This document shows positions 25,101 through 46,931 of a stretch of DNA of 64,000 nt, one piece after another. The stretch spans positions 1 through 64,000 of IMG/VR virus record IMGVR_UViG_3300043772_001024. The stretch is one strand, 5' to 3'. The notes under the pieces were generated by a model. That model made no database searches, was not told where the DNA came from, and saw nothing but the letters and a program-made list of their open reading frames with translations. How positions within the stretch are numbered: position 1 is the stretch's first letter; every line of letters starts with the position of its first letter. This DNA is from a virus. A program made the position numbers and the translations under genes.

Positions 25101-27444
25101 GAGCATATTCATGAGGAAGTGTATCTTCTTTTTGATTTACTGCATCAAGAAGTACAGACATAGCTTTTATATTAGCTTGTCCTATAATTCTGTCAGCCTC
25201 GTTTCTTTGGAGTAATATATTTTGTAAGTCTCTTACTTGATTTACAGTAACTTGATTCCACTGATTACCATACTCATCAGTAATTACTTCCGGAGTATAA
25301 CCTTGTTTTTTAAGAACATTAGATACTGTACTCTCATAAAAGTTATAAATAGGTTTAAGAGCACCAAATCCTTGAGGGCCTTCTACATTTGCAAGTTCTT
25401 GTTTAAGTTGAGCTATTTCATTATTAATAGTAATTAAATTATTTTTAGTTGCATATATTTCACCGTCTTCAGGATCTACATCAATGACATAGTCAGTTGG
25501 TTTATTACTTTCTATATCTTTTTTTGCTTTTTCAAGTACATCAAGTCTATTTTGCTTCTGTTGTTTATACTCTTCTAATGTTGTATGCCCTTCTATCTTA
25601 CTAGCTGTATCACCTTTAGGAAACAATACTTTTTCATAACCTTTCTTAGCACTATCTTGTATGATAGATTTAACAAAGAAGTTTACCCAGTTATTATCTT
25701 TGTTTAGGAGTTGTAGAAATTGGTTTTTACTTTTCAAATCTACATCAGGAGTGTTAATATATTTTTTTTGGGCTTCTTCAAATTCTTTATAGTTAATACG
25801 TCTTCCATTTTCATAATACCTTGTAGTAGGTTCTGTTTGATTTTCATCTGGATAATACACATCTTCAACTCTACTTTCATAGACATTATCACCTAAAGTA
25901 AATTCATATTCTTCAGCATCAAAAATTTTACGTGTAGTTGTTAAGTCTTCTCTATCTCTACCTTTCTGAAATAAATCAGATTGTACTTCTAGTATTCTAC
26001 GGGTTTTAGTAGGTGTGCCTCCTACTGTATTATATTTTATTTGTTCTCCTTCTAACCAATTACCATTTTCGTCAAATCCAGTTTGTTCTTCTAAAGGAGC
26101 TCTTTCATAAGTTGGATTTAATACATGATCATCACTTCTAAACCAACCTATACCATTTTTTGTAGCAAACTGAGCATGTCCTTTAATATTAGGTACTATA
26201 CCAGGGGTAGTTATCTCTTGTTCTGTATAGTTAGTTCCTCCTGGAACTGTTAGGTTTGAGTAGTATTTAGCATTTTGTTCTAACACCTTAGTATTATATT
26301 CTTCTTGAGATATAATGTTTCCATTTTTATAATGAATATACTCAAATTCAGGTGTAACACTTCTTTGATAAACATCATCACCTATTTTGTAACCATCTGC
26401 TTCTGAAGGTAGTTGTTGTAAATTAACTTTTGATTTAGCAGTATTAATCTCAACAGTATAAGTATAAGTATCAGCAATAGCATAAGCTATTTGAGCATTA
26501 AAAGGTATACCTTCAAAGTAAGGCATATCTTTTAGTACATTATCAATAAGTTCTTTTTGTTGTTTAGGCACTTGAAGTTCTGTAAGTATTTTATCTAAAG
26601 GCCATTTGTTCTTAAGACCTTTCTTGAATACTTCATCTGCTTTAGGAGAAGTGAGTATGTCCACTGTTTTGACACGGAAACTTACTTCATTATTATAATC
26701 CTGTTGGTTTAAAACATTTGATCCTTTCTCCCATAATGGAGTTTCACTTATATTAAGAGTGATTGCTGGATATAATTGCTGAAGTTTCTCTTTTAGTCTG
26801 CTAAATAAACCTGAGACAGCTTGAGGTGTAGTAAGCTCATCTCTTTCTTCATATAAATATTTGTCATCATAATCTAAACCAGCTCTTTCAGCATCTTCTT
26901 TTAATAACTCTCTGGCTTGTCTTTCATTCTCTAGTTGTTCATTATCTATCTCAAAGTCTTCTTCCGGTAGAAAGTGTTCATTATTCTCTATCATTTTCTC
27001 TAGGTCACTCACTTGAGTTACACTCTCTCTCACCATTGTTTTAGCTCTTTCTATCTTAGCTTCCACATCTAATGTTCCACTTACTTTTCTAAGACCCCAG
27101 GTGTATAAATCTGCTTCACCTACTCTATCATAGTTGACAAGCATATATACTTCCGGATTACCAGCTTTGTAGTTATTATTATTAGCTTTTGAAATAGCTT
27201 GTTTCAACTGTATAATTCTATCAGTGCTTAACAGTTTTGGAAAAGTTGTTCCAATTTCATTTTTTACTTTAGAAATAGGAATTATGTTAAGCTGTTCTTT
27301 GATTTCTTTATTGGCAATAAACTCATCATAAGTTGGTACATTGTCACCAAAATATGTATCAACCATCTGAGACACAGTAGTTTCACCAAAGTCTTTAACA
27401 AGTTTAGCAACATTTCTATCACTTAAATTCAAACACTTACTCAT
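19168..27444 (-). CDS. Giant virion/ejection protein (2758 aa): two zincin-like domains, EVQSD domain, LysM, C-terminal hydrophobic helix
   Basis: HEYAH (~25100), HEFAH (~24410), LysM-like segment 19981-20112; follows the RNAP gene as in crAss-like phages. Confidence 0.85.
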   Translation of the reverse strand: MSKCLNLSDRNVAKLVKDFGETTVSQMVDTYFGDNVPTYDEFIANKEIKEQLNIIPISKVKNEIGTTFPKLLSTDRIIQLKQAISKANNNNYKAGNPEVYMLVNYDRVGEADLYTWGLRKVSGTLDVEAKIERAKTMVRESVTQVSDLEKMIENNEHFLPEEDFEIDNEQLENERQARELLKEDAERAGLDYDDKYLYEERDELTTPQAVSGLFSRLKEKLQQLYPAITLNISETPLWEKGSNVLNQQDYNNEVSFRVKTVDILTSPKADEVFKKGLKNKWPLDKILTELQVPKQQKELIDNVLKDMPYFEGIPFNAQIAYAIADTYTYTVEINTAKSKVNLQQLPSEADGYKIGDDVYQRSVTPEFEYIHYKNGNIISQEEYNTKVLEQNAKYYSNLTVPGGTNYTEQEITTPGIVPNIKGHAQFATKNGIGWFRSDDHVLNPTYERAPLEEQTGFDENGNWLEGEQIKYNTVGGTPTKTRRILEVQSDLFQKGRDREDLTTTRKIFDAEEYEFTLGDNVYESRVEDVYYPDENQTEPTTRYYENGRRINYKEFEEAQKKYINTPDVDLKSKNQFLQLLNKDNNWVNFFVKSIIQDSAKKGYEKVLFPKGDTASKIEGHTTLEEYKQQKQNRLDVLEKAKKDIESNKPTDYVIDVDPEDGEIYATKNNLITINNEIAQLKQELANVEGPQGFGALKPIYNFYESTVSNVLKKQGYTPEVITDEYGNQWNQVTVNQVRDLQNILLQRNEADRIIGQANIKAMSVLLDAVNQKEDTLPHEYAHHYIAWFRNTPLVQEAISKWGSEEALVQSIGEQAVAQKGEAWGWWKKFTEWVMSLFDNLSTKDKQELTNILTDAFLQGVDLQTGKIGISAERSRELAAQASGIFNQTIEGSFDEQIQNVPGEYSQQAIDTELDRRIESQRQMDTEEASVDDNLNQLDPDNQKIILTATAFAEKLADAIGADYKFVSEAEAEAILANSPTPYGGQSGFYHANTVYLVKGRLSLDTVLHEFAHPLVKGILKQNPKLFNNLYAALASTPEGQDIIERVRQEYPNLQEGTDRFKEEAIVTSLEIKAVSKVNDNSPFGKFIKNLMFAIKKVLRNMFNTKNGNAINLNKLSENTTLDELAGMLSNPEFTIMDMELIPSDIAEFKNEITAKIEELNNVPKEKLQETIDRVYTDTLNQLNTLKQAPFKVKQELLGAKGTKILGYIREELEKYQTVNVRPQDVDAENVIKAIADHETEMKLRSLALINSLNELKVFTDSIKNILEELEKSKDKNTNANISKVVYYKGFLNSQMRMLEDLKSIPELDRDGEFFRKINSIADNIKDAEKKIYNIEFNFISEFFNNETDLMASAVENNFRERVTLLLKAEGIPEADIEKFIDKVISNPDGTSMTVKDIELPISSRRAKYVVDAAKEYFFKRLGRQQIEEYLRGERGDLGFFTAWITPYSNMDDPITGGFVKFIKEKMNDAMMRSQNQANDITLKLLPLLNAVGYNPRKTNQLGDMLLFTDKVGFTNSDGVYEEKDVLTFLNKFKNYRADRARLQNDFDLAKSKKDQAKMKEAYEALEIFDEKYMHRKFTKEYYDIQKIWKTGAKVVNPFTGEEITVTPKVAFDSFLERQEQLNKMSTLKNVHFLELEDLYELGDSEEQAKLEYNRLFDIYNLDGKPKTGEELQRVLLRKKHREQTRNMYDYSADTDRLQKDLDNFAAKLKARNIDPEALPEEGETMNRYQKEMDRFFRKNLKTAYTSQYYQSRQQIFEDIRKITEKAGVKSKVALELSELYKERYRLANSTADANGQPNGLNFTASQIDLLRDIENKILALEASYNKKTGLTQEETARLNIYMTKVSAKVQLSPEENQDFLTLYKTKNDMGLTELEMQTLNRKFAELAALSVKEPTDYYIEAFNYAIRNTGLPEITADNADTWINSDYLTQALAKDKEFAQWYTRNHVEKQVYVKGTGMTNKNFRLNVWTITKPSNENSYQTTVLMNPATGEYQKYMGVPAGKYSKSVIKNEFLTIPRGANWDQYVGTYIDNRGNYLPREYKPGDRNTAYDNKYMNEKYAELEKANNAEFQLLKTISEEFIKLQDGKAVNSRLYLDLPRFRKRSNLEFIQSGETKENLVEKVGGIKGLYKSWFGKAPDDVEYGFNFDAGSTLTTTDLEGNPVTKIPVRGTYNLDSKMVSKDVLRSMYEYLLSLNEQQILMENEPVADALLSVLSNNPIKDLEKLDKGEFKLTGKKKYISKEENKREKAVKYLIDKVFYGKSTTAFEEENPRIAKIFQGMFRRSSRAFIAFDPQSAIKNRWGQLYQNSIMAAGGRFVTPTSLAKGKLKAKQTATYWVFKDVYEKGIKTPDIQLVERFDPSLRTESEFGKSASRSIAKDLSDMTYAFDFRRTMEFEASMELFWGVMYNKYVDQNGESIPYADAWTSDAEGRLVLKEGIDPNFSFDEVFHRYTAGETLDSIAKKYNISVEALKYRADIESVADLIPGEEIKVGDASEFKKMKLLVQGVNKKVTGSLDKFDTPQAEKYLFYRAFTFYKRFATGMFLDKYQIDTTAGNRGGYVYNWDTQTLEKGYYMQAFQSIYKLIKSIGRDWAILTPQEKVAMTRLLAEGVLLFLLAMIVGSWGFDWDPEDPDRYKQMKRDNKTWSGYFGNHLMYLLMTTKSENEAFLPLLGIKDQISYFSTTTIATTNTIQMYIRIMFDLWNIATDNPDAIYSKQDQGPYAWQKKGKYKLWNHIGSMYGVKGKNKDPMWSVKKFEQFEATK

Positions 27445-30400
27445 AACCCTTTACATTTAATATAATAATCTAATGCTTTATTGACATCTAAGTTAGGGTT
27501 TTTTGTTAACTCACCCTTATACCAAGATTGAAATTCTGTACTATTTAATACTAGTAATCTTGGAGTTATATTACCAGTATTTGGTGTTGGTGTTTCTGTA
27601 ATCTCAGTGTCTTTAACTGTATCACTTTCTAAGTTTAATGTGTTTGCCTCAAACTTATCTTCAGCTTTCTTAACTATTGCAAGTCTATCACCATTATTTT
27701 CTGCCCACTGCATCATTTTACCAGTTGTCCCAGATATTATTTGATTTCTTTTGTTTACCACATACTTAGATCCATTATGCTCAACAACTACCGCCCGGCC
27801 CTCAGCAACTGCAAGATTAGCAAAGACTTTATTTCTATCTACACTATCACCTTTAAATACTTCTACACCAGCACTATTAAATATTTGAGCTCCTCTTACT
27901 GTATAAGTTTGAGTTTCTTTTCCTTTTGGTGTATAAGTTATTTGTGTTCCGGTAACTTTAGGTTGAGTAGATGGTTGAGTAGGAGCAACTGTTGCTCTAC
28001 CTGGTACAATATTCACATAGTTTCTAAAGAATCTATTCTTAGGATCTTTAATACCATTAAATACATTTGTTAAATCTGGTACCTTGTTTTCCTTACTGAT
28101 AAACTCTGCAGATATAGGATTCATTATTGCCAAGAAATCATCAAATGGTAAAGCCTCATTAAAACCATATTTGCTAAAGCCAACTCCATTTTGATATATT
28201 GTCATCAATGGTAACAACTTAAACATGTTGCTTATGTACAAGTTCTTTTCAGTATTAGATACTTTCTCTACATTAGGGTCTGCCAATTCTTTAAGATTCT
28301 CATAGTAGCTTTCAGCTAACTGACCACTCTTTAATAACTTGTTATCATTAAGTGTTAGTATTTGCTGTCCTTCTTTCAACTCCGGTTTAGCCAACTGATT
28401 AAGTATGCTATATTTTTCTTTTAAGTTTGGATTCTCTTCTATTAAAGTAAGCATATCATCTGCAAAAGAGTAATCTAAATTTTGGAAGAATACATCTCCA
28501 GTAAAATATCTATCAATCAACTCAGAAGGAATGTTTAATACATCTGTGTCAGATTGAGTATAGTTATACATAGCATTTTGGAAAAGGTAATTAACCAATC
28601 CATTTTTATACTGTGTGATAAACATTCTTTTACCATCATCACCATAACCAAATGATTTCTTTATATCTGATGCTCTATTAACCATCAAGTTAATAATAGC
28701 TTCAGTTACAGTTGGATTATTCTTTAATGGGAACAATGGCTCTATTAACTGTCTTATGATGTCATTATCATAGAATGTTCCAAGGATAGACTCATTTCTT
28801 AACTTCTTAACTAGTGCAGGATCTACTTTTGAGTTCTTCTCCATTTGTGAAAGAAGTACTTTTCTAAGCACCATCTCCTGTGTAGTTTTAGAAGTTGTAG
28901 TATCTGGATTAGAAAGTCTTAATAAATCTTGGAAACCAGAGAACTGATTCTGTAACTCTAAGAAATGTAAGAATACTGCTAATTGATGATCTTTAAGTGA
29001 GTCTTTTTGTATATCTGCTACCAGCATTTTTTCTAGTAGTTTGATATCAAACTGACCTTCTTCATTTAAGATGCCTGATTTTTTAATTAAAGCAGATAAA
29101 GCTCTATGTGTTTTTATATCTGACTTAACATATGCCGGTGCATTCTGTATACCAAATTTTTCTAATACACTTATTGCGGCTCTTTTATTTTTACCAGCTT
29201 TAGCATCTTCAAGTTCACCAGCTACAAGATCAGCATATGATCCGCCCAATAGTCTCAACTCTTTAGCATACTCTCTAATCATTGGTTGAGATAGAAACTT
29301 AACAGCATAATCTCTTGGAACACCAGCTTTAAACAATGTCAAAATCATTGGTGCTAACTCCATGTTACCTTGAATAAAGAATATCCATGCATCTTTCTCA
29401 ACATCCACGGCACCATTAATCATCTGAGAGTATAAATCAGATATTAAATCTACACCATCTGCAGTGTATACATCTGATAATGATATCTCATTATCTTTAG
29501 TGGTATTATGAGGAGTTAATAGTCTTGTTTCAATAGGTGTTGTGCCCTCAACATATTTACCTAATGAGCTATCAAAATATGTATCAAAATACTTTTTAGG
29601 CATCTTAGCACCCAATGAATTATATACTGGGTGTAAAGCATTATAGATAGCTACTAAACCAAGTACATTTTTACCAATCATGTTAGCCTCATGTTTATGA
29701 AGATTATATAATGGTTCCAATGTTCTTGTTGGACTTATTGATCTTTTTGCTTTTGTACCTGGTCTTTCTGCTTCACCATGATAGTTTCTAAATCTATTAT
29801 AGTCAGCTACCTTATCTTCAAGCTTATCAGCTACATCATCTTTAAGCAAGTAAGTATCATTTGGTCTTACCAATGCAGCATAGTTTTCTGGAAGCTTAAG
29901 TATATTATTTATACTTGTAATAAGCTTGTTTTCAAGGGCTGCTTTTTGTTGTGATATTACTCTTGAGATAGTTGCTTTACCTTCCGGTGTATCTTTATTA
30001 GATTCAATCAATCTTTTGATAGCTTCATTATCCATAGCTGATTCTATAAACTTACCATCTTTAGAAATAGCTGGCATAAATGTAGTAAGTTTATCAACGT
30101 CAAAGTCAGCTCCAGACTTAGCAACAATCTCAGATGGAGGTATAATAATGTTACCTGCACTTGGGTCTAAGAATTCCCATACTTGCATGTATTCCATTGA
30201 GTTTAAACCTTGTACAGGAATCCTTACAGCTGTTAATGTAACTGCTTTCTCATTCTGAGACATCCACTTATCATCTTTAATCATCTGATTAAGTCTTTGT
30301 CTTGTACCTATTACCTCACCATCATTATGCTTTAAATTTAACAGGTTTACAAAGTCTCCTTGTAAAGCAATAGCAACCTTCATTGCAGATGTACCATCTT

Positions 30401-33400
30401 TTGTTTGATCATAAAAAGGTAGGTTGTTACTACCCATATATTTTCTCACATCTTCATCTGTAGCATTTTTAAGACCATTGTCCCATAGACCATTAGTCAT
30501 AGCACTTGATACTTGAACCAAAGCTTCACCTTTAATCTTTTGTCTTACAAGTCTTTTCTCCATTAAAGCTACAAGGATCTTTTCTATATCATCAGATTTA
30601 AGATGCAATGATAAGTCTGTCTTTAATGAGTTGTCTGGATTAGCATTAATAAATTCTATTTGATGCTCTGGTAAATCTCTTCTTTCTAGTTCAGCTTGTA
30701 TAACTTTTAAAAACTCAGTAAAGTTTCCAATGTATTTGCCATCTTTATATTCATAACCAATATCATTAAGCAACTCCATTTTTAATAAGTTACCATACTC
30801 ATCTACTGTATTCTCATAGTCTTTAACTAAGTCAGCATGTTTATCAAGGATACCTTTCTCATACAGGTTACTTAAGATAAGCTTTCTTAACTGAGTGGAG
30901 AATACTGTTTTACCTTTAAATGATACTGGAACTTGAGTAACATCTTTAAGATACTCCAGATATATAGTATTTGGTGTAAACTTGATATCACTCATTAGGC
31001 TCATTTGCTCATCATCAGAATATATTTTATCTGCAGCAGCCTCACCTTTTTTGTTAACTTCAGATGTTACACTACCAACTTTAGAACCAGTTTGGAATGT
31101 TACATACTGTATATTCTTTGTCATCATTTGATTGTGAAGATTCTCTAAGTCAGAACCTTTAATCATAGATGGAATGAGTGGAGCTAATGCAAACTTATGC
31201 ATTGCCATTACTGGTAAATCTGTATTTGCTAAATGTCCATAGTTTTGAACTTTGTATACAGGAAACATTTCTACAACATCCGCTGCATTTATAGGCTCAT
31301 TATTAATTACTTTTTTAAACAACTCTTCCTGAACATCACTCCATTGACCAGATGCCATTTTAAGTGCTCTATACGCATCAAAAGTAATCCAACCTTGACC
31401 ATCACCCTCTTCCATTCCTTTATACTTCTCAATCTCAATAGCAACTCTTCTGTCAATCTCAGCTTTTATTTCTGCTTCAGATAGTTTACTTTTTGCAAAT
31501 CTTTCTGCATAGTCTTTTCTTAAAGCTTCTTCAATGGGCTTGATATATTTAGAGTCTCTTTTTATATCTTGGAGAATTGCTGTATTAAATTTACCATTAT
31601 AAGCTAATGTATCCATACCAGGGATTGTAGCAGCATAAGATACTTTTTGATTTAATTCAGTTAATAAAGATTGTATAGCTTTATCTGTTCTGAATTTTAA
31701 ACCACCGGATGTTGACCCAGTATTTCTTTTATGTAACTCTTCTTTTTCATGGTTATATTGAACCAAGTCTCCATAGAATAAGCTACCCATTTCAAAGTTA
31801 TGAACCCAAGCATTTACCGCATATGCTTTCATTAATACTTTAGTAGCTTCTTCTTCAGATAGATTAAATACTTTTAATCTTTCAAGTAAGTCAGGGCTTA
31901 AGTATTCTGCTTCACTGTAAAAATCTAAAAGGTCTAGTGTCTGTTGTTCAAAATAATTATCTACATCAGTTGCAATCTTTTTTGCAAGAACCGGATCTGT
32001 CTTAAGATAATCCTCTAATCTCATGTTTGGATCAGTTACCTTTTCAAGTATCTCATTCTTAGTATCTTCAGTAAGAACATTATCAAAAGCTGTAAAGTTT
32101 TCACCAGCCATGGTACCATCAGGCATCTTTCTATTATAGCCGGCATACTTTTTAAACAGATCTTTGTTAGTTTTAAACTTGTTTATCCTTTCTAACTCTG
32201 CAGCTATATAAGGAATCATATGAGTTTTAGTAACATAGTTGTTAGCTGTACCAATTGCAAACTTATCTAAATCTACCCAAAGTCTTGTGTCTGATCCTTT
32301 ACCTACACCACCTGGAATACCACCTTCTATTCTTGCACCAAATGAAGAAGACTTAGAAGCATGTCTCATGAATTCTTGAACACCACCTTTTAGTAAACTG
32401 TGTAGTTCTTGCAAGAACTTACCATGTACATCTAATGAAGTTGTGTTAGTTCCTTCACCATTTTCTAACTGAGTTCCAGAGTTAACAAACATCTGTAAGG
32501 ATCTACCAACTCTTTTTTCCATATCTGATGCAATATCAAATAAGGAATTCAAAGTTTGTGATCTGTTTGTAAATGAGTTTATCTTTGGATCAAGATAGCT
32601 TAAGTATTCAAACTCACTACCTGCATTCCACAACTCTTTCATATTAGAAGCTTTGTTTAAAGCATATATAATCATACTTACAGAGTGATCTTCTATATGT
32701 TCAAACACAAGATTTCTTTCAGCATTAAGCACTGCAAAGTTTGAAGAGTCAATACCATACTTAGCTTGAAGACCAAGTATCTTATCAATTTTATTTTTCT
32801 GAGATACTTCTTTACCTAAGACTGATGCAGGAATACCTTTCATCAACCCTTGTAATGGATTCATTCTGAAATTGGTTATAGCTTCACTAGCCTCCGAAGT
32901 TAAGTTTTGTTTTTTACTGGCTTTATTTATTTCAACTATAGTTTTAAATATATATGGTAAACCATATTCTTGTATAGCTCTTTGATCTTTCTTAAGTTCA
33001 TTTTTTATAACTCTTAAGTCATCTATATACAAACCAATTGCTCTTGCAAAATTAAATGATTTATCAATTATAAGATTACCATCTTTACCAAAATCTTCAA
33101 TGATCTTATCCATGTCAAGCATTGGTATATTATTCTCAAGAGATCTTATTACATAGTCATTTGTTAAGTCTCCTTTAAACTTAGCCTGAAACTTATTTGC
33201 AAGACTTGCTGTTTCTATTGAAGCTTTAGTAACTTCAGCTATACCATTTTCAAATATAGTAGTTTGTAAATATGTAGCTCTTGTTTTCTGAACATCTTGC
33301 CAAAAGTTAGTAAGCAATCTATTTTGAGATATTTTATCATTTATATTATCTGCTTGCACTACTTGTGATGGACTTGGAAGCTTGCTGTTTATCAACTGTT

Positions 33401-36400
33401 TAAACTCAGGATAGACTTCAGCAGCTGCTTGCTTTATATTATCATATATCTGCTCTGGATTTTTTTCTCCATTTACAGCACGCATTAAGTTGTTCCATGA
33501 TTCAGTAAAGTTTGCAAGCTCTTTATAGCCTAACTCATTGTAAACAGCTTTACCATTTTCAAGTTTGTGAAGACTCTTAAGAATGTATACTGTTTCTTTA
33601 CTAGCTAAGTCTAACAAAGATTTCTTACCAACCTTACTATCTTTTATCTGTTCACCAGATTTACTTTCCTCTACTCCTTCTGCTTTAGCACTTGATTCTT
33701 CTGTTTCAGTTTGTTCTTCTACATCAGTTTGATCTTCTTCTACTTCAATGTATTTTTGTCTTAGTAAATTAAATGTAGTATTTTCTAAATGATACTTTAC
33801 AAGACCACCTTTTGCATCACCAAAGTTATCTAATGCAGATTGAAAGATTCTTATCTTGTTTAACAGCTTTGCAGCTTCCATAGCTTTATCAGGATCATTT
33901 TCAATCTCTGTATAACTAGTTCTAGCATTAGCAAGTTTAGTTTCAAAATCTTTTCTTACTCTGGTGTAGAATGCTTTCTTATTATTATCACCAAGTAACA
34001 TAGATATGCTACCACTCTTATTACCTTTAAACTTTGCAGCTGCATCAATTATTTCAGATATATATGAGTCAATACTCTCACTTACCAGTTTAGCATCCTG
34101 TCTATTGAGTGCATCAATAGTTGGGTCTGTTAAACTTACTACACCTCTGTTGAGTTGTTTAAAAGATGTGGTATCAATATTTGGTGAGTATTTTTTTAAG
34201 AACTTAGGATTACTTTTTGCAAAGTATAGTTCTTTAAACAACTTATCTTTAGTACTCTTTGAAGAGAACAAGTTTTTGATAAAGTTTAATATTTTTCTAA
34301 ACAGAGTGTTTCTTGTTGTTTGACCTTTTTTAGCTGATTGATCAATACCATAAGATCTAAAATCTTCAGCTAAGTATTCTTCTAACTGTAAATAGTTAGC
34401 ATCCTTAAATGCTACTGTAGTACCATCTAGTAATGTAAAGCTTCCCGGTTGTTTAGCTACTTCTTTATATAACTTTTCTCTTTGTTCTTTAGTCAAGAAT
34501 ATTTGGGAGAATGCATGCCATGCTTCATGGTATACATCTACCATTGTACCTCTTTCACCTATCTCTATTTTACCAAACTTACCATTAAGTACAGAAGCAT
34601 AACCTATAAATCTAGCATATACATCAGAGTTAACTATGTTTACCATAGTTTTAAAGTCTATGTATTTAGATAATGGAGAATCATTCCACCATTGCTCAGC
34701 ATTTTTTATTTGCTCTTCTGTAACTCCATTTAAATCTGCACCCTTTCTAAACATAAAATCACTGAAGTCATCAGCTGGATCAGTTGTATTCTCTGGTGCT
34801 ATTGCATTGTTAATAGATTGCTGTTGAGTAATACCACCAATAGAGTCAGCAATAGCTTGTCTAACTTGATTTACAACTTTAGTAGTAGCTTTTCCTTCTT
34901 TATCTGTTCTCCCATTATCATGTTTAATAGATTTAAGCTTTTCACTAAAAGTATCTTTATTAAATCCTTCAGGAACAGTTAAGTTAATATAAGTTCCTCC
35001 ACCAGTTCTACCTACAAAGTCTTCAGATGGTATTCTAATTCTTAGAATATTACCATCAATCATGAAGCTATTATTTTTATCATCAGAGAGTCTTCTTATT
35101 ATATAAGACTCATCTTTCTTTTCTATTGTAGAATTTTCATTTATAAAATCTTTTAACCCATCTGTTGTTGATTCAACATTTAGTTTTAAATCAACAGCTG
35201 GTGTAGGTTGAACTTGAGCAGGAGTACCTAATGCAGCTAGTTCTGCATTTTTTTCTTTTTCCCACTGATCAAAATCTCCAACTTCTTTTATATACCATGC
35301 CTGCTTATCTTTCCACTTCTTTTCTATATCAGCTCTCTGAGCTTCTATATCAGTTTCAGTATTTGTAGTAGTAGGTTGAACAGGTTGTGATACATTAATA
35401 GGGTCTGGATTTTTAAAGTCCTCTTGTAGCTCTTTAATAAACTCAGTAGGTATACTAAATACCATGTGTGAATTAAAGAATCCCGGATCTGTTTCTTGAG
35501 ATATCTTTACTCTTGTGTTTGGTAATGTTTCAAGAAGAGGTATGTATGGAGTAAACTCATCATTGATTGTGTTTGTTTCTAAATCATAATCTTGGTAACG
35601 GTTATTGTTTAATGCTTTGTCATTATAAGTCATCTTAGCACTATAGTAGTTACCTTTATCATCAGTAGCTGCATTTAGCAAAACATCTTCAATAATACTT
35701 TCTTTACCAATAAGTTCTTCATTTATAAGTGGTATCTCTTTTCCACCACCCTGCTTATATGTTTTTTCATTATACTTGAAAATTAAAGTATTGGTACCCG
35801 GATCATAACTTAACTCATGTCTTCTAGTAGAAGGAGATGCTTTATCTGATAAGAACTGAGAAACAAAATTATATTTCTCTGCATTAGATATATTTGGATT
35901 AGCTAATGCAGCTGCAATCTTTCTAATTAAAGGACTTGCTTGTCTTTTATTATTAGCAAATTCAATAGGTAAGTTAGGTCTATCTAATGAATATTCTTTA
36001 CCATTCAAAGTAATCTTAGCTGCTTCTCTAGTACCACCAATCATTACCGGAGTAATAGTTCTGAATGTAGCATTGTTTACAAATGGAAGTTTTCTTAAGT
36101 TTCTTAAGTCAACATAGGGTTGGGCTATACTTTCTTTTACACCAGGAGTTAAACTAGTTAAATCAAGTAAAGGTCCATCACCTTTTAATGTAGCTTCTTT
36201 AACTTTATACAGCTCTTTAAACTCTTCTTGTTGTAACTTTCTAGCTTCTTCTTCTGTGATACCCATTTGTGCAGCAATATCAGCAGGAGTTTTAACACTA
36301 GTTTCAGTCCCATACATATTAGTCAATCTGTACACACCATTACCAGTTCTTACATCTCTCATGAACTGATACACAATGCCACCACCTTCTTCTTGAGTAA

Positions 36401-37235
36401 CTATCTTACCTTCTTGATTGAAGTAAAGATAATTACCGTCTGCATCTGTAAGCACTAATGCAATTCTTTTTAAACCTTCAACACCTTCTTTATTAGTTTC
36501 TTGAGCTTTAATTGCACCAGCTCTTATGAGTTCATTAAGAGTTGTTTTATCTAACTGAGCTTCATGAGTTTTTCTTAACTCTGTTAACAGTATTGGTTTT
36601 AACTTTAGTGTTCTACCTTGATATGTAATTCCAGCTAGAGGGTCTGTTGAATCAGAAAGTTCTACATCAGCTCTTATAGCTTCCATTGCAGAGAATATTC
36701 TCTGTTTAGCCGGATCTACTTTTTCTTCAAGTATTGGTTTATTTGTAACAGGATTAATTGGAATTAATTGCTGCATAGTAGATACAGTAGAACTAAAAGG
36801 TCTAAGTCTTACCGGATCTTTTATTTCAGATGTTTGATCTACTTGCTCAGTAAGCAATGCCTCATTTTGTTTAGTTTTAATCAAAGCCAACTTTGCTCTC
36901 TCAGATACTTGTGGTTTAAAGTATTTTTGTACTTCATTAAAACCTTCAACCTCATTCTTAAACTTAAGACTCAACTCTTTAATTGGATCTAACTTAATAT
37001 CTAAGTTGTCAAAAGCAGGTTTAGCTGCTATTGTTCTTATAATAGAGGGAACCTGTTGAAGAAACTTAACTGCTGTATCTTCATCTTTTTTGTCCGCAAT
37101 CTTATCAAAAAGATCAGCCATATATTGCTCAGGACTAAATGTCTCTCCAGCTTTTATTGCTTCAGTTAAAGATTTGTATATGGTTTTATATAATTTTTCA
37201 GATTGACTCTGGCTTAAGGCACAAGTAATTTTCAT
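27441..37235 (-). CDS. Virion-packaged crAss-like RNA polymerase (3264 aa) fused to a zincin-like domain
   Basis: RIPVQG and KSGADFDVDK (catalytic DxDxD at 30093-30107); DGQGWIT; HEAWH (~34520). Confidence 0.92.
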   Translation of the reverse strand: MKITCALSQSQSEKLYKTIYKSLTEAIKAGETFSPEQYMADLFDKIADKKDEDTAVKFLQQVPSIIRTIAAKPAFDNLDIKLDPIKELSLKFKNEVEGFNEVQKYFKPQVSERAKLALIKTKQNEALLTEQVDQTSEIKDPVRLRPFSSTVSTMQQLIPINPVTNKPILEEKVDPAKQRIFSAMEAIRADVELSDSTDPLAGITYQGRTLKLKPILLTELRKTHEAQLDKTTLNELIRAGAIKAQETNKEGVEGLKRIALVLTDADGNYLYFNQEGKIVTQEEGGGIVYQFMRDVRTGNGVYRLTNMYGTETSVKTPADIAAQMGITEEEARKLQQEEFKELYKVKEATLKGDGPLLDLTSLTPGVKESIAQPYVDLRNLRKLPFVNNATFRTITPVMIGGTREAAKITLNGKEYSLDRPNLPIEFANNKRQASPLIRKIAAALANPNISNAEKYNFVSQFLSDKASPSTRRHELSYDPGTNTLIFKYNEKTYKQGGGKEIPLINEELIGKESIIEDVLLNAATDDKGNYYSAKMTYNDKALNNNRYQDYDLETNTINDEFTPYIPLLETLPNTRVKISQETDPGFFNSHMVFSIPTEFIKELQEDFKNPDPINVSQPVQPTTTNTETDIEAQRADIEKKWKDKQAWYIKEVGDFDQWEKEKNAELAALGTPAQVQPTPAVDLKLNVESTTDGLKDFINENSTIEKKDESYIIRRLSDDKNNSFMIDGNILRIRIPSEDFVGRTGGGTYINLTVPEGFNKDTFSEKLKSIKHDNGRTDKEGKATTKVVNQVRQAIADSIGGITQQQSINNAIAPENTTDPADDFSDFMFRKGADLNGVTEEQIKNAEQWWNDSPLSKYIDFKTMVNIVNSDVYARFIGYASVLNGKFGKIEIGERGTMVDVYHEAWHAFSQIFLTKEQREKLYKEVAKQPGSFTLLDGTTVAFKDANYLQLEEYLAEDFRSYGIDQSAKKGQTTRNTLFRKILNFIKNLFSSKSTKDKLFKELYFAKSNPKFLKKYSPNIDTTSFKQLNRGVVSLTDPTIDALNRQDAKLVSESIDSYISEIIDAAAKFKGNKSGSISMLLGDNNKKAFYTRVRKDFETKLANARTSYTEIENDPDKAMEAAKLLNKIRIFQSALDNFGDAKGGLVKYHLENTTFNLLRQKYIEVEEDQTDVEEQTETEESSAKAEGVEESKSGEQIKDSKVGKKSLLDLASKETVYILKSLHKLENGKAVYNELGYKELANFTESWNNLMRAVNGEKNPEQIYDNIKQAAAEVYPEFKQLINSKLPSPSQVVQADNINDKISQNRLLTNFWQDVQKTRATYLQTTIFENGIAEVTKASIETASLANKFQAKFKGDLTNDYVIRSLENNIPMLDMDKIIEDFGKDGNLIIDKSFNFARAIGLYIDDLRVIKNELKKDQRAIQEYGLPYIFKTIVEINKASKKQNLTSEASEAITNFRMNPLQGLMKGIPASVLGKEVSQKNKIDKILGLQAKYGIDSSNFAVLNAERNLVFEHIEDHSVSMIIYALNKASNMKELWNAGSEFEYLSYLDPKINSFTNRSQTLNSLFDIASDMEKRVGRSLQMFVNSGTQLENGEGTNTTSLDVHGKFLQELHSLLKGGVQEFMRHASKSSSFGARIEGGIPGGVGKGSDTRLWVDLDKFAIGTANNYVTKTHMIPYIAAELERINKFKTNKDLFKKYAGYNRKMPDGTMAGENFTAFDNVLTEDTKNEILEKVTDPNMRLEDYLKTDPVLAKKIATDVDNYFEQQTLDLLDFYSEAEYLSPDLLERLKVFNLSEEEATKVLMKAYAVNAWVHNFEMGSLFYGDLVQYNHEKEELHKRNTGSTSGGLKFRTDKAIQSLLTELNQKVSYAATIPGMDTLAYNGKFNTAILQDIKRDSKYIKPIEEALRKDYAERFAKSKLSEAEIKAEIDRRVAIEIEKYKGMEEGDGQGWITFDAYRALKMASGQWSDVQEELFKKVINNEPINAADVVEMFPVYKVQNYGHLANTDLPVMAMHKFALAPLIPSMIKGSDLENLHNQMMTKNIQYVTFQTGSKVGSVTSEVNKKGEAAADKIYSDDEQMSLMSDIKFTPNTIYLEYLKDVTQVPVSFKGKTVFSTQLRKLILSNLYEKGILDKHADLVKDYENTVDEYGNLLKMELLNDIGYEYKDGKYIGNFTEFLKVIQAELERRDLPEHQIEFINANPDNSLKTDLSLHLKSDDIEKILVALMEKRLVRQKIKGEALVQVSSAMTNGLWDNGLKNATDEDVRKYMGSNNLPFYDQTKDGTSAMKVAIALQGDFVNLLNLKHNDGEVIGTRQRLNQMIKDDKWMSQNEKAVTLTAVRIPVQGLNSMEYMQVWEFLDPSAGNIIIPPSEIVAKSGADFDVDKLTTFMPAISKDGKFIESAMDNEAIKRLIESNKDTPEGKATISRVISQQKAALENKLITSINNILKLPENYAALVRPNDTYLLKDDVADKLEDKVADYNRFRNYHGEAERPGTKAKRSISPTRTLEPLYNLHKHEANMIGKNVLGLVAIYNALHPVYNSLGAKMPKKYFDTYFDSSLGKYVEGTTPIETRLLTPHNTTKDNEISLSDVYTADGVDLISDLYSQMINGAVDVEKDAWIFFIQGNMELAPMILTLFKAGVPRDYAVKFLSQPMIREYAKELRLLGGSYADLVAGELEDAKAGKNKRAAISVLEKFGIQNAPAYVKSDIKTHRALSALIKKSGILNEEGQFDIKLLEKMLVADIQKDSLKDHQLAVFLHFLELQNQFSGFQDLLRLSNPDTTTSKTTQEMVLRKVLLSQMEKNSKVDPALVKKLRNESILGTFYDNDIIRQLIEPLFPLKNNPTVTEAIINLMVNRASDIKKSFGYGDDGKRMFITQYKNGLVNYLFQNAMYNYTQSDTDVLNIPSELIDRYFTGDVFFQNLDYSFADDMLTLIEENPNLKEKYSILNQLAKPELKEGQQILTLNDNKLLKSGQLAESYYENLKELADPNVEKVSNTEKNLYISNMFKLLPLMTIYQNGVGFSKYGFNEALPFDDFLAIMNPISAEFISKENKVPDLTNVFNGIKDPKNRFFRNYVNIVPGRATVAPTQPSTQPKVTGTQITYTPKGKETQTYTVRGAQIFNSAGVEVFKGDSVDRNKVFANLAVAEGRAVVVEHNGSKYVVNKRNQIISGTTGKMMQWAENNGDRLAIVKKAEDKFEANTLNLESDTVKDTEITETPTPNTGNITPRLLVLNSTEFQSWYKGELTKNPNLDVNKALDYYIKCKGL

Positions 37236-37239
37236 ATCA

Positions 37240-40200
37240 TTAACATTCTAGATCATCTAACAAAGCATTAACTGTCTCATCTACTGTGATATTTTTATCT
37301 GCAACTTCTTGTTCTAAAGCTGTCTGTGCTGTAACATCATTAAGCAATGTAGATACAACATCAGTTGACTCTTTAGATAGATTTTGAAGATCTTTATCAG
37401 CCGGCTGAGTTGTTGGTGCCTCACCTTCAGTAAATAGATCACTATTTAATTTAAACATTTTATTTAACATATCAATAGAAATTGTCTTTTGATTTTTCTT
37501 ACCATATGGTTTTATTGTAACTGTACCTTTAACTATATCAATACTGCTAATAACTGCTGTCTCAAATGGCTCTAAAAATACTTCACCTCTATTCTTACCT
37601 TTGTCTGCAAATATAGTACTTTCACTGTGAACTTGGTTTCCGATACTCCAAGATTTTTCTTGCGTTGCAGCTTTTCCCCCTGAAAGTAAGTTACTCCTTT
37701 TTTGTTCTAACATTTGCTGCACTTGGAACAACTCATCAGCTGTCATGTCAAGAGAGTTCATACCAAGTTGAAGTTCAATAAAGTCTAACTGATCTGTGTC
37801 TTTAGCTTTGTTTATTCTATCCTCATACTCTTTAACTTTTGCAGAAGTATCAGTTGGAGTTCCTGTTGGTACACCACTACCTTCTTCATAGTCAGTAGGT
37901 TCTACTTGTTCTCCCTCAGCTTTATTTACTATGTTAGATACACTTGGAGAAACAGGTACACTACTAACAGTAGGTTTAGACTTCAATGGTATGATACTGT
38001 CTATTTGAGCCTGCATTTCTGGAGAAACAGGTAGGTCAATAAGTATCTTACCTGCTTTAAGTGCATTGGCTGAACTTGGTCTTGAAGCTTTTAATATCTT
38101 ACCTGTGTTTCTATCTATTTGAGTTTCAACTGGTAATATTTTTGGAATAGCTTTAACACCAATCATATTGTATAACAAGTTTACATAAGATGCTTGTTGC
38201 AATGTATTAGATACTTTGCTTGAATAATATTCACTATTAGGATCATTATACTTATCCCACTTATCTTGCTTACCTGTTTTTAAATCTACTATGTAAAAGT
38301 TTTTACCATCAGATAGTAGGAAGTCAATCTCCCCGGCAACATTTGCATCCTTGTCATACACAACAAGACCTCTGGATACTATAATTAATTTATTAGTATC
38401 CATCCATTGTTTCATAATCTGGAATAAACCATTTTCACCAAATAGGTTTTCATAAGCTTCCTCACTAATTTTATCTGCTTCAAATTTTGGTTTTCTACCT
38501 GCAAGAAACTCTTTAGATAAGTCATCTATGTATGTTCCTGCATCTGTCTCTTCATTGTATGTTTTTTCTGTTACTGCTCTTTCTACACTTTCTAAAAGTG
38601 TATCTGGAGTTTGTTGAGCTTTTTTAACCTCAGAAGGTGTGACATCTGGAAGCCCGGCAGACAATTGTAACAACATATTAGACTGGGCATCACTCATTTC
38701 ATTAGGGTATCCCTGGTACCCTGAAGTATCATTCCAATCAGCAATTATCTTATTCAGCTCTTCTTTAGATTTTATTTGACCTGACTTGATAGCATTTTGC
38801 AAATTACCAAAGAATATAAATGATAAGTTAGGACCTGTAATACCTATTTGGTTTCTTGAAGTAGCAACTAACTCTTCATAAGTTACAGGAGTTTCAACAG
38901 GAACTTCTTCTTCAATTTGGCTCTCAATTGCAGCTATCTGATTTCTTATTTCCTGAGCTAATTCAGGATTACCAAACTCACCTTCTTCTACTTTAAGATC
39001 TTCTCTTAAACTATTAAGTTGAAGTTTAAGTACATCTTGATCTGCAGAAGTTATAGTCATTAACTCTTTTATTTCTTCTGCAAGAGCTTCATATGTTTTT
39101 TCACTGAATCCAGGAAGCTTGGCCTCTCTTAATTGATTTATAAAAGCATCTACACCTTTACCTTGACCAATTGTCATGTTAAATGCAACTCTAACATCTT
39201 CCATTTTCTTGTAAGCATATTTCTCACCTTTAAGGCTTTCAATAACATTACTTACTCTTCTTAAAATATCACCCTCTACATCATAGCCGGTTTTCATTGC
39301 TTTAATCTTCTCTTGTTCCTTAAGCAGTAAATCTATTTTAGCTTTAGCTGCTTGGAGCTCAGGACTCATCTCACCAATTCTTTTGTTCTCTATATATGTA
39401 GAAAGTATGTTAGCTTTACTTTTATAAATAGCCAAGTTCTTTCTCTCTTCATCTGTAAGTTGATCGGCAGGTTTTGCACCCAACTCAGCAATTAAAAATC
39501 TATATCTCTGTAGTGTAGTATCTAATATAGCATCAGTAGCATCATCTGCAGATATTACTTCTCCATTAGGTAAAGTAATAGATGGTACAACCACTTCTCC
39601 AGCAGGTGTTGTTGCTGCTTGTAGCTTTTTATCTTTTACATATTTCTCAATTATCTCTAATGCTTCTGACTCAGATTTAATAAATGTTGCAAACTTGTTT
39701 TGTAAATCTTCTTCAGTGAGATTATCCGGAAACATACTTTTATTTTCTGGTCTTGCTCTGTACTCATCATATGCATCAACAAGCTGTTGTTTTAATTCTG
39801 GAGGCATTGCTTCTATTGGGGTATCAGCATTGATTGCATCTAACTCAGCTATTTGTTCTGCTGTGAATGGTTTAATACCTTCTTCAATAGCTTTTTCTGC
39901 AGCCTCAGCTCTTAAAGCATCATATGTCTTTTTTACTTCTGCTACATCTTCATCAGTTGGTCTGTTTAATATTTCAAATATTTCACCACTGTTAAACTTG
40001 ATATCTAATTTTAAGTCAACAGCTTCCCCTTCTGCATTATCATATTTTAATACACCAGCCTGATCTTTAAAAAACACAGCTGTTTTTTGTACTCCATCTT
40101 CTTCATAAGTAACATCAACACTTTGACCATTAGATAATTGATCATTAATAACATTTATGCTGAAATCTTTTTTGTTATCTATTTTTCTTACAACTACTTT

Positions 40201-46300: not shown

Positions 46301-46931
46301 TAAGAAGTTGTCCATTTTTATTTTTCATTATCCATTTACCATCTGGACTTAAGCTGGTTTTCTCATATGATAAACCAGCACTCTTTGCTAACTCTCTTGT
46401 TTTCTCAGCTACATTTACATATGGTGTATATACAACATTACCAAACCCCATAGCTTCATCAGCACTGGCATTTTTAAATTCTTCTCTTCTATATTGTAAT
46501 TCTTTTATACCATCACCCCAATATTGTTTTCTAGCTTTTTCATCATCACTTTTATTCAAACCTTCAGCAGCACCATAAGTGTTGTTAAAGTTTTTAGTCC
46601 AAGCCATGTCTTTCATCAAAGCACCATCTTCATAGAAAGGCTTAAATATCTGAGAAGCTTGTTGTACATTTTGTTCTAAAGAAAGATCTAAACCAGCAAT
46701 TCTTTTTAAATCCATATCAATTTGCTGTACTGTAGCATCTCTTTTTTGGATATTGTCATCTCTTGTAAGATCAGCATAATAAAACTGACCATACATTTTA
46801 TTTAACTGCTTGTAATTTGAATCATATTGAGTTTGCTTAAGCTGCAATAAATTAGCAACCATATTCAATCCAGTATCATGTGGTTGAATAGATGGTATTA
46901 TTGACTGAACTCCTTGTAAATAGGTACCCAT
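43392..46931 (-). CDS. Putative ejection/cargo protein (1179 aa)
   Basis: Helical, no Cys seen; first gene of the giant-protein cluster. Confidence 0.75.
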   Translation of the reverse strand: MGTYLQGVQSIIPSIQPHDTGLNMVANLLQLKQTQYDSNYKQLNKMYGQFYYADLTRDDNIQKRDATVQQIDMDLKRIAGLDLSLEQNVQQASQIFKPFYEDGALMKDMAWTKNFNNTYGAAEGLNKSDDEKARKQYWGDGIKELQYRREEFKNASADEAMGFGNVVYTPYVNVAEKTRELAKSAGLSYEKTSLSPDGKWIMKNKNGQLLIEPLSSLFEAELGRDPAIQAVYKTQAYVNRKDFAKGEADKYGGEAQAEMEYMKDAYGKMKKLTESRHADKQANTKMYDAQIADIQKQIKEQGSDPLLERQLQQYQEAKGVNDEILGKLDEQLNQFNSSYSSSGNTSTGQFQNPYKDINQLRNVVDGNMANMLMNEDLMGAATRFAYTDAKEDFKENPYAVLDVKHAHQLSEINAAGSWRYQTEQLRGQNRLEAIQAKAYYDEFSYSGEPKAPKSSGGSKSGSGSGKKVSDDQVAKAQEILNNPLANQQAITEAKATLKKHEEQQEFNVFDAFKLLDPEGGFLKGQDVSKVEKQSIGTLFDQKGKTGIMGLLKVYDQAIQNDEMTQQQFYDLVKPAGAAESSVGWSVYKPGRGPEYEFTDPKALMKKIESEGVDFLLKHTNKEKQDVYIKNYKGEKVRDAMDIEQKKFAGYKEGTVKYSDNIKDNYMASFLANGTSWLTKNSNLTTVKSAMRQGLDTELAIANTISKNVQDSRKWRYETRELVADDVYNSLKNDPTMIKEFGTAKFDKNGKYLSTDMSRLREELGNMYDQSGNLNSNYKLKTNFIIEAKDKEQKMRNDPTFKMLPEFAQNAVLSGLYEDRPETYKYKEKMESNNPVTKYQLGIGEDRERVANSIEDVNNILSARIMNQFTKSARDIYSDVGDRHIIGEVPGYVKLNEEGGSGFGMRALSSRIDLSKPNSLGAITFWEFTKDWANLRNSIDGLENVISFEGASPTGYKSGKIESGIFGTSFFDRSYDETSSALGKRLLDDYMEWTKEHGTKANAFDMIAQRVAAEDMTKGSMKIKFPEKFLKEMLLDEEKNPNGYIEQTDYDKLIQNGLTVIAPNTKFNNSLHNSTMGALQSHVEYNDKYTWNHPSGLGSFTIRKGDPSDPDYITETTYKDYNGEIIESVVNRSTTFGPNLESALGSGIDDLNGWVYDDLKKFSQQQKNIQMQSSGNAVNN

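What the first reader, a model, noticed from the sequence alone, without database searches (positions are those of the whole stretch)
27433..37245. Terminal-cysteine daisy chain across the three giant ejection proteins
Seen in the translations: the 2046-aa protein has one Cys, its last residue (37243-37245, ...LDDLEC). The 3264-aa RNAP has two, C5 (37221-37223, MKITC) and C3261 (27453-27455, YIKCKGL). The 2758-aa protein has one, C4 (27433-27435, MSKC). That is four Cys in 8068 residues, each within five residues of a terminus facing the neighbouring gene. The two outer ends of the chain have none, and neither does the 1179-aa protein. Established: N4 virion RNAP is Cys-free, which is thought to suit passage through the periplasm, so Cys-free interiors are expected. 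Inference: the retained Cys pair head-to-tail in gene order (C2046-C5, C3261-C4) by disulfide or shared metal. This would form one thread of about 8000 aa with fixed stoichiometry and ejection order, released by reduction in the cytoplasm. The genes are also tightly coupled (4-nt gap; ATGA overlap). I know of no description of this.
Basis: partly seen in the sequence, partly recalled or inferred. Interest (0 to 1): 0.92.

Follow-up and report, generated by a model that had tools for sequence, protein, structure and literature searches.

The report
Terminal cysteines chain crAss cargo proteins
Three giant proteins that this crAss-like phage carries in its particle, with its RNA polymerase in the middle, have no cysteine except one at each end that faces the next protein; relatives keep this rule wherever the genes are separate and drop it wherever they are fused, which points to untested end-to-end disulfide links tying the proteins into one thread.

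Summary
The 2046-, 3264- and 2758-aa proteins hold four Cys in 8068 residues (C2046; C5 and C3261; C4), all at facing termini; other ORFs in the window have 0.91% Cys.

It is not chance. About 105 of 120 polymerase homologues have exactly these two terminal Cys, and 102 of 105 homologues of the first protein have one Cys at -1 to -6. The pattern holds in 14 reference crassviruses from three families.

The Cys follow gene boundaries, not homologous positions:
- Fusions lose exactly the flanking pair.
- Four full fusions (5415-5729 aa) have no terminal Cys.
- The first split lies on opposite sides of a zincin motif in different lineages.
- In crAss001 the first gene is on the other strand, so junction nucleotide signals are excluded.

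A co-fold of the first protein's C-terminus with the polymerase's N-terminus scored 0.80 against 0.00 for the best control, with both Cys in the interface. Cyanophage A4 has the same signature in unrelated proteins, and cryo-EM shows a Cys1715-Cys5 disulfide there (PMC12002296).

Head-to-tail pairing is therefore well supported. The bond itself, ejection order and reductive release are untested. This scan noted the same rule earlier in other crAss-like genomes. I found no paper describing it for Crassvirales.

The parts
37240..43380 (-). Protein A (2046 aa), first giant cargo protein and homologue of crAss001 gp47. It has a weak PD-(D/E)XK nuclease region and its only Cys is the last residue.
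37243..37245 (-). Codon of C2046, the last residue of A. The column is invariant in a 36-sequence alignment.
37243..37410 (-). C-terminal tail of A (residues 1991-2046), predicted to dock on the N-terminal domain of the polymerase.
27441..37235 (-). Protein R (3264 aa), the virion RNA polymerase homologue. Its only Cys are C5 and C3261.
37221..37223 (-). Codon of C5 of R (invariant).
36936..37235 (-). N-terminal ~100 residues of R, highly conserved. This is the predicted docking domain for the tail of A.
34515..34529 (-). HEAWH zincin-type motif (R residues 903-907, invariant). It serves as the landmark showing that the A|R split lies at a different place than in Steigviridae and Intestiviridae.
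30093..30107 (-). DFDVD catalytic motif of the two-barrel RNA polymerase (R residues 2377-2381).
27453..27455 (-). Codon of C3261 of R, fourth residue from the C-terminus (invariant).
19168..27444 (-). Protein C (2758 aa), third giant cargo protein and homologue of crAss001 gp49. Its only Cys is C4.
27433..27435 (-). Codon of C4 of protein C.
43392..46931 (-). 1179-aa Cys-free protein upstream of the chain. It is probably a cargo protein; its boundary with A carries no Cys, so it is not part of the chain.

Best explanation
The three giant cargo proteins are joined head to tail inside the virion. The C-terminal tail of A docks on the conserved N-terminal domain of the polymerase R, and the C-terminus of R docks on the N-terminus of C. 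Each joint is then locked by a disulfide between the two terminal Cys (C2046-C5 and C3261-C4). The result is one covalent, nearly linear chain of about 8000 residues. It is the functional equivalent of the single polyprotein that other crassviruses encode as a fusion. Because each Cys lies within a few residues of a terminus, the joint adds almost no branch, so the chain could still thread through the narrow tail channel as one string. The interiors are kept Cys-free, which avoids mispairing and capture by periplasmic oxidoreductases. Shown here: the Cys pattern, its conservation, its strict link to gene boundaries, and a predicted A-R interface that contains both Cys. Inferred: the bond chemistry, when the bond forms, the N-to-C ejection order A, R, C, and separation by reduction in the host cytoplasm.
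For: (1) Conservation. About 105 of 120 R homologues (44-99% identity) have exactly two Cys, one at position 5 and one at -1 to -4. At least six unrelated C-terminal sequence contexts occur. 102 of 105 A homologues (23-97% identity) have exactly one Cys at -1 to -6; the three others are fragments. All three Cys columns are invariant in the alignments.
(2) Order-wide pattern. The same pattern occurs in phi14:2, crAss001, cr85_1, cr116_1, crAss002, cr271_1, CrAssphage LMMB and cr3_1.
(3) Natural fusions. A-R fusions (cr50_1, cr118_1, cr52_1, cr108_1, P0247, P0242) have no N-terminal Cys and none at the junction, yet keep the R|C pair. R-C fusions (crAss002, cr271_1, LMMB, cr3_1, P0353) keep only the A|R pair. 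Full fusions (P0300, P0329, P0294, P0373) have no terminal Cys. Only head-to-tail pairing predicts this co-loss.
(4) Contingency over 350 proteins. With the chain-start domain, 0 of 127 have an N-terminal Cys, against 195 of 223 without it. With the chain-end domain, 0 of 52 have a C-terminal Cys, against 267 of 298 without it. Interior Cys frequency is 0.0093%.
(5) Split position. The A|R split lies upstream of the zincin YHEAxH motif here but downstream of it in crAss001, cr85_1, crAss002 and cr271_1. Each lineage has a Cys pair at its own split.
(6) In crAss001, cr85_1 and cr116_1, gene A is on the opposite strand from R, so junction nucleotide signals cannot explain the Cys codons.
(7) Co-fold of A 1897-2046 with R 1-300: ipSAE 0.80, 0.85 and 0.80; best of 3 controls 0.00. 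That mark was reached by 58 of 80 solved complexes and 2 of 110 mismatched pairs. The runs agree in at least 63% of contacts and the partner pLDDT is at least 72. The interface covers A 1991-2046 including 2043-2046, and R 1, 3-18 and further residues.
(8) Precedent. In cyanopodophage A4, the C-terminal helix of gp27 inserts into gp26 and is fixed by a Cys1715-Cys5 disulfide seen by cryo-EM (PMC12002296). In the A-4L genome, gp27 (1717 aa) has a single Cys at -3 and gp26 (1114 aa) a single Cys at position 5.
(9) crAss001 virions do contain inter-subunit disulfides in the tail and portal vertex (PMC10172136).
Against: No physical evidence exists for the bond in any crassvirus; the cargo proteins were not resolved in the crAss001 atlas. 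Virions assemble in a reducing cytoplasm and gut phages live in anoxic conditions, so it is open whether and when the Cys oxidise. The co-fold is a model's confidence. It may pass because the two pieces are halves of an ancestrally continuous domain, and it did not report a Cys-Cys distance. The second joint (R-C) was not co-folded. The rule is looser in some lineages: the C-terminal Cys is at -9 in crAss001 gp50, and fused Intestiviridae proteins and cr116_1 have 5-15 internal Cys. The statistics are not corrected for shared ancestry. About 10% of termini expected to carry a Cys lack one, though most of those look like truncated gene calls.
Confidence: 0.7

Rival explanations
1. The termini dock non-covalently and the Cys stay reduced in nature. 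They are conserved as interface residues or as a thiol sensor, and any disulfide forms only on exposure to air.
For: The co-fold gives a large helical interface of about 55 and 60 residues that might suffice without a bond. Hosts and habitat are anaerobic and assembly occurs in a reducing cytoplasm (established knowledge).
Against: Cys is the only residue that is invariant at joints whose surrounding sequences differ completely between clades. A plain interface residue would be replaceable. Cys is otherwise excluded about 100-fold from these proteins, so keeping it suggests its chemistry is used. In A4 the bond is seen, and crAss001 virions hold other disulfides.
Confidence: 0.12
2. Each facing Cys pair binds a shared metal ion such as Zn, Fe or Cu rather than forming a disulfide; or all four Cys form one tetrahedral site that gathers the four termini.
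For: The tail of A is acidic (..LDDLEC), which could add ligands. Four Cys is the number needed for a Zn(Cys)4 or cluster site.
Against: Lineages with one fusion keep only two terminal Cys, which excludes a universal four-Cys site. No His, Asp or Cys co-ligand is conserved next to the Cys across clades. The A4 precedent is a disulfide.
Confidence: 0.07
3. The terminal Cys do not pair with each other. Each links its protein to another virion component (portal, inner capsid, other cargo) or carries a modification.
For: Other virion proteins have Cys. The upstream 885-aa protein has a six-Cys cluster, and crAss001 tail and portal-vertex proteins use disulfides.
Against: This does not explain why fusion removes exactly the two Cys flanking the fused boundary and leaves the other pair, nor why outer ends never carry Cys. 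The candidate partner is not constant: cr85_1 gp058 and several upstream cargo proteins have no Cys. The co-fold puts both Cys in one interface.
Confidence: 0.06
4. The Cys codons are a by-product of nucleotide signals at tightly coupled gene junctions (overlapping stop and start, re-initiation).
For: In the window the junctions are a 4-nt gap and an ATGA overlap.
Against: In crAss001, cr85_1 and cr116_1, gene A is on the opposite strand and far from the start of R, yet both Cys are kept. In LMMB, cr3_1, crAss002 and cr271_1 the genes are 80-170 nt apart. The Cys position varies from -1 to -9 and from 3 to 6, in unrelated contexts.
Confidence: 0.01

Closest known systems
Cyanopodophage A4 (Anabaena phage A-4L) ejection proteins gp27 and gp26, Cys1715-Cys5 disulfide in the pre-ejectosome (PNAS 2025, PMC12002296)
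   Same: The two proteins are large, otherwise Cys-free ejection proteins encoded by adjacent genes. The upstream protein has a single Cys 3 residues from its C-terminus and the downstream one a single Cys at position 5. A C-terminal helix of the upstream protein inserts into the downstream protein, as predicted here for A and R.
   Different: A4 has two proteins rather than three and no RNA polymerase in the chain. BLAST detects no homology to the crAss proteins. The A4 proteins form a pentameric ring around the portal axis. The paper reports the bond as a structural detail and does not describe a conserved rule or a link to gene splits and fusions.
crAss001 gp47-gp50-gp49 and phi14:2 gp67-gp66-gp65 (virion RNA polymerase module of Crassvirales; PMC10172136; bioRxiv 10.1101/2020.03.07.982082)
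   Same: These are homologous proteins in the same order with the same terminal-Cys pattern. They are known to be packaged in virions, and they are fused into one polyprotein in some phages.
   Different: The window's clade is distant (22-27% identity) and its proteins are larger. The A|R split lies on the other side of the zincin motif. Neither paper mentions the terminal Cys: 'cysteine' does not occur in either text.
Schitoviridae (N4, DEV) ejection proteins including the 3500-aa virion RNA polymerase (PMC11445570)
   Same: A giant virion polymerase is ejected into Gram-negative hosts, and Cys is strongly suppressed in the ejected proteins.
   Different: The N4-type proteins have essentially no Cys at all, terminal or otherwise, so they have no covalent chain. 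Their polymerase is T7-like, not a two-barrel DFDxD enzyme.

Membership tests
Crassvirales virion RNA polymerase / giant cargo module | Giant protein with the DFDxD catalytic motif, homologous to phi14:2 gp66 and crAss001 gp50 | tested here: met
   DFDVD lies at R residues 2377-2381. tblastn and BLASTP hit crAss001 gp50, phi14:2 gp66 and crAss002 gp33, with E down to 1e-30.
Crassvirales virion RNA polymerase / giant cargo module | Flanking giant proteins homologous to gp47-like and gp49-like proteins, downstream of the tail and cargo genes | tested here: met
   win_A matches crAss001 gp47 (E 7e-7) and win_C matches gp49, cr118_1 gp15 and cr108_1 gp052 (E 1e-3 to 3e-6). The similarity is weak but colinear.
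Crassvirales virion RNA polymerase / giant cargo module | The proteins are packaged in the virion and ejected | not testable with these tools
   Known for crAss001 and phi14:2 by mass spectrometry. Inferred here by homology.
A4-type head-to-tail disulfide between consecutive ejection proteins | Single Cys a few residues from the C-terminus of the upstream protein and at about position 5 of the downstream protein, with Cys-free interiors | tested here: met
   The rule holds at both joints.
A4-type head-to-tail disulfide between consecutive ejection proteins | The C-terminal helix of the upstream protein docks into the N-terminal part of the downstream protein | tested here: met
   Prediction only: ipSAE 0.80 against 0.00 for the best control, with the interface covering A 1991-2046 and R 1-100. 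The second joint was not tested.
A4-type head-to-tail disulfide between consecutive ejection proteins | Disulfide physically present in the virion | not testable with these tools
   Needs non-reducing gels, cross-link mass spectrometry or cryo-EM.
A4-type head-to-tail disulfide between consecutive ejection proteins | Sequence homology to A4 gp27 and gp26 | tested here: not met
   No BLASTP hit at E below 0.01 against the crAss panel and all 375 collected proteins. The trio works like the A4 pair but is not a homologue.
Schitoviridae-type Cys-free ejection proteins | Complete absence of Cys from the ejected proteins | tested here: not met
   The interiors are Cys-free, but four terminal Cys are conserved.

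The most novel reading that the evidence does not exclude
In Crassvirales the injected cargo is always one covalent thread. The segments are joined either by peptide bonds (fusions) or by terminal disulfides (splits), so genes can split or fuse freely during evolution as long as a Cys pair marks each split. The thread, about 0.9 MDa in this phage, is pulled through the tail in a fixed order and is cut into working proteins, including an activated RNA polymerase, only when host thiol reductases meet it in the cytoplasm. The same device arose independently in cyanophage A4, which would make it a general solution for podophage ejection proteins.
Probability: 0.4. Interest if true: 0.8.

Novelty: new variant of a known kind. 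Interest (0 to 1): 0.72.

Why it matters
Crassviruses are the most abundant phages of the human gut, and how they deliver roughly a megadalton of protein, including their own RNA polymerase, through a narrow tail is unsolved. A conserved covalent tether would explain several things: equal stoichiometry, the ordered passage of proteins that are too large to leave folded, and why the same module can be one, two or three genes in different lineages. It would also give a redox trigger for releasing the polymerase in the host. The idea can be tested at once on cultured phages (phi14:2, crAss001, crAss002) with non-reducing gels and cross-link mass spectrometry. The sequence rule is also practical. 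It flags mis-called starts (for example crAss002 gp33), shows whether a giant gene on a metagenomic contig is complete, and tells where it sits in the chain.

Tried and rejected
- Megablast of the region against phage genomes found nothing.
- phmmer of each giant protein against PDB sequences found nothing, so the polymerase identity rests on the DFDxD motif and tblastn.
- PHROGs and Pfam gave only weak nuclease and LysM hits.
- The exhaustive phmmer search with the N-terminal 1000 residues of protein C was dominated by a promiscuous domain (residues ~213-870). It therefore did not give orthologue statistics for C. It did, unexpectedly, supply the diverse giant proteins and full fusions used in the contingency test.
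- Rejected readings:
  - A lipoprotein lipobox: only 2-5 residues precede the Cys, so there is no signal peptide.
  - Split inteins: there is no intein domain.
  - A single Zn(Cys)4 site: singly fused lineages keep only two terminal Cys.
  - Junction nucleotide signals: contradicted by the opposite-strand cases.
- The alternative pairings A-C/R-C or R-N/R-C were rejected because a fusion would then orphan Cys, which is not seen.
Full report
**Observation.**
- A (37240-43380, 2046 aa) has one Cys, its last residue.
- R (27441-37235, 3264 aa) has C5 and C3261.
- C (19168-27444, 2758 aa) has C4.
- The 1179-aa protein upstream has no Cys.

The starts are unambiguous, because only a few non-start codons separate each ATG from the preceding in-frame stop. 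Thirteen other ORFs of the window contain 0.91% Cys. About 74 Cys would therefore be expected in these 8068 residues and 0.18 in the 20 terminal positions, where four are found.

**Identity.** R carries DFDVD at residues 2377-2381. Its surroundings match the annotated RNA polymerases of crAss001, crAss002, phi14:2 and many other Crassvirales at 22-31% identity. A and C match crAss001 gp47 and gp49 weakly but colinearly. The window therefore comes from a distant crAss-like phage. The trio corresponds to the virion-packaged gp47-gp50-gp49 of crAss001 and gp67-gp66-gp65 of phi14:2.

**Conservation.**
- Close IMG/VR relatives (66-99% identity) keep all four Cys and Cys-free interiors.
- Among the 120 best R homologues (44-99% identity, 2548-4304 aa), about 105 have exactly two Cys: one at position 5, and one at 1-4 residues from the C-terminus.
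- The C-terminal Cys sits in at least six unrelated sequence contexts.
- Four homologues have one extra internal Cys. Those lacking C5 have unrelated N-termini, which points to truncated gene calls.
- Of 105 A homologues (23-97% identity), 102 have exactly one Cys at -1 to -6 and none inside; the other three are fragments.
- In alignments A1 and A2 the three Cys columns are invariant.

**Order-wide pattern.** Position of the Cys at each terminus (negative numbers count back from the C-terminus):

| Phage (family or genus) | A C-term | R N-term | R C-term | C N-term |
|---|---|---|---|---|
| phi14:2 | -1 | 3 | -2 | 3 |
| crAss001 | -3 | 5 | -9 | 5 |
| cr85_1 | -4 | 3 | -1 | 5 |
| cr116_1 | -2 | 3 | -1 | 6 |
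| crAss002, cr271_1, LMMB, cr3_1 (Intestiviridae) | -1 or -2 | 3 | fused | fused |
| cr50_1, cr118_1, cr52_1 (Suoliviridae), cr108_1 | fused | fused | -2 to -4 | 3 to 6 |

- In phi14:2 these four Cys are the only ones in 5398 residues.
- For crAss002 the R N-terminal value holds only if translation starts at the in-frame MSC, 32 codons downstream of the annotated start.
- The outer ends (A N-terminus, C C-terminus) never carry a Cys.
- In crAss001, cr85_1 and cr116_1, gene A lies on the opposite strand from R. In several Intestiviridae the genes are 80-170 nt apart. The Cys codons therefore cannot be a by-product of junction signals.

**The Cys follow boundaries, not positions.**
- The fused A-R proteins have no Cys near the mapped junction, and the fused R-C proteins have no Cys pair there.
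- The exhaustive phmmer search returned diverse giant proteins that share a promiscuous domain with C. These proteins obey the same grammar.
- BLAST mapping identified four full A-R-C fusions. P0300 (5680 aa) and P0329 (5415 aa) have no Cys at all; P0294 and P0373 have one internal Cys each.
- A-R fusions whose only Cys is the last residue are P0247 and P0242. An R-C fusion whose only Cys is C3 is P0353.
- Over 350 proteins of at least 1200 aa, a chain-start domain at the N-terminus excludes an N-terminal Cys: 0 of 127, against 195 of 223 without it (Fisher 3e-68).
- Likewise a chain-end domain excludes a C-terminal Cys: 0 of 52, against 267 of 298 without it (Fisher 1e-40).
- Interior Cys frequency in this set is 91 in 976,539 residues.
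- These counts are not corrected for shared ancestry. However, the fusions occur in different families, and the four full fusions come from separate 50%-identity clusters.
- The invariant zincin motif YHEAxH lies inside R here (residue 903). It lies inside A in crAss001, cr85_1, crAss002 and cr271_1. In the Suoliviridae fusions it sits at the same distance from DFDxD as in the window (about 1475-1490 residues).
- The A|R split therefore sits at non-homologous places in different lineages, and each lineage has a Cys pair at its own split.

**Which Cys pairs with which.** A fusion removes the two Cys that flank the fused boundary and leaves the other two. Only head-to-tail pairing (A C-terminus with R N-terminus, R C-terminus with C N-terminus) predicts this. 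Any other pairing, or a single four-Cys site, would leave orphan Cys in singly fused lineages.

**Physical plausibility.**
- The first ~100 residues of R are much better conserved than its C-terminal region, and the last ~10 residues of A are conserved.
- The co-fold used A 1897-2046 and R 1-300, each with its own alignment. It scored ipSAE 0.80, 0.85 and 0.80, against 0.00 for the best of three controls.
- That mark was reached by 58 of 80 solved complexes and 2 of 110 mismatched pairs. The runs agree in at least 63% of contacts, and the partner pLDDT is at least 72.
- The confident interface comprises A 1991-2046, including 2043-2046, and R 1, 3-18, 20-25, 42-68 and 93-100. Both Cys lie in it.
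- No related complex is in the PDB by sequence, so a pass from memory is unlikely.
- The pass may reflect that the two pieces are halves of an ancestrally continuous domain, which is itself compatible with the model. It is a prediction, not a measurement.

**Literature.**
- Cys suppression in N4-type ejection proteins is established: 0.00075% against 0.865% proteome-wide (PMC11445570).
- crAss001 virions contain structural inter-subunit disulfides, and gp47, gp49 and gp50 are unresolved capsid cargo (PMC10172136).
- Neither crassvirus paper mentions cysteine in the cargo, and my searches found no paper describing the rule for Crassvirales.
- Earlier notes of this scan record the same rule in other crAss-like genomes and pointed me to PMC12002296, which I read.
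- In cyanopodophage A4 the C-terminal helix of gp27 inserts into gp26 and is fixed by a Cys1715-Cys5 disulfide seen at 3.4-3.6 Å.
- In the A-4L genome, gp27 (1717 aa) has a single Cys at -3 and gp26 (1114 aa) a single Cys at position 5. Neither has detectable homology to the crAss proteins.
- The sequence signature has thus been shown once to correspond to a real head-to-tail disulfide.

**Verdict.** Head-to-tail pairing of the terminal Cys is strongly supported by comparative evidence, by a passing co-fold and by an experimental precedent in an unrelated podophage. Still inferred are that the link is a disulfide in crassvirus particles, when it forms, that it enforces ejection order, and that reduction in the cytoplasm releases the proteins. 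I rate it a new variant of a known kind: a three-member chain with the virion RNA polymerase in the middle, plus an evolutionary rule that ties Cys pairs to gene splits. It can be tested directly on cultured phages.

Noticed in passing
window 47816-48148 (protein 46997-49654, minus strand): The 885-aa protein just upstream of the Cys-free cargo proteins has six Cys packed into residues 503-613 (C503, C557, C589, C591, C610, C613). The 66%-identical relative L002 keeps all six with the same spacing. crAss001 gp45, phi14:2 gp69 and cr271_1 gp44 have a Cys pair 8-10 residues apart at a similar place. This could be a metal site or a disulfide knot in the tail-lodged cargo protein.
   Followed up: partly
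window 24835-26844 (protein C residues ~213-870): This is a promiscuous domain with no Pfam family. phmmer finds 915 proteins at E below 1e-10 among 1.8 billion representatives. The domain sits at very different positions in first, middle or last members of the chain, and sometimes in several copies (P0259 has four).
   Followed up: partly
L012 20432-20723 (cr108_1) and L018 19038-19879 (cr116_1): In two Steigviridae the RNA polymerase gene is interrupted. In cr108_1 the break lies exactly at the DFDxD motif (the upstream ORF ends ..AKAGSD and the downstream one starts ..YDIDK, with a 290-nt gap). In cr116_1 a 215-aa Cys-rich endonuclease-like ORF lies in the gap. These are probably self-splicing introns in the catalytic site.
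   Followed up: no
L007 15945-16043 (crAss002 gp33): The annotated start of crAss002 gp33 is probably 32 codons too early. An in-frame ATG gives MSCTPS.., which matches the N-terminal Cys rule seen in cr271_1, LMMB and cr3_1 (MSC..).
   Followed up: partly
window 34515-34529, and protein C residues 778 and 1008: The chain contains three HExxH zincin-type motifs: HEAWH in R (invariant among homologues), and HEYAH and HEFAH in C. Which protein carries the protease motif differs between lineages.
   Followed up: partly
P0002-P0120 (homologues of R): R homologues vary by more than 1000 residues. They carry different accessory domains according to precomputed Pfam hits: YbiA/DUF1768 PF08719, 2OG-Fe(II) oxygenase PF13532, PF18760 and PF25176. 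The polymerase protein thus seems to serve as a carrier for swappable injected enzymes, all of them Cys-free.
   Followed up: no
L012 31675-31944 (cr108_1 gp046): cr108_1 encodes a thioredoxin-domain protein in its early or replication region. This may be relevant to reducing the proposed links after injection.
   Followed up: no
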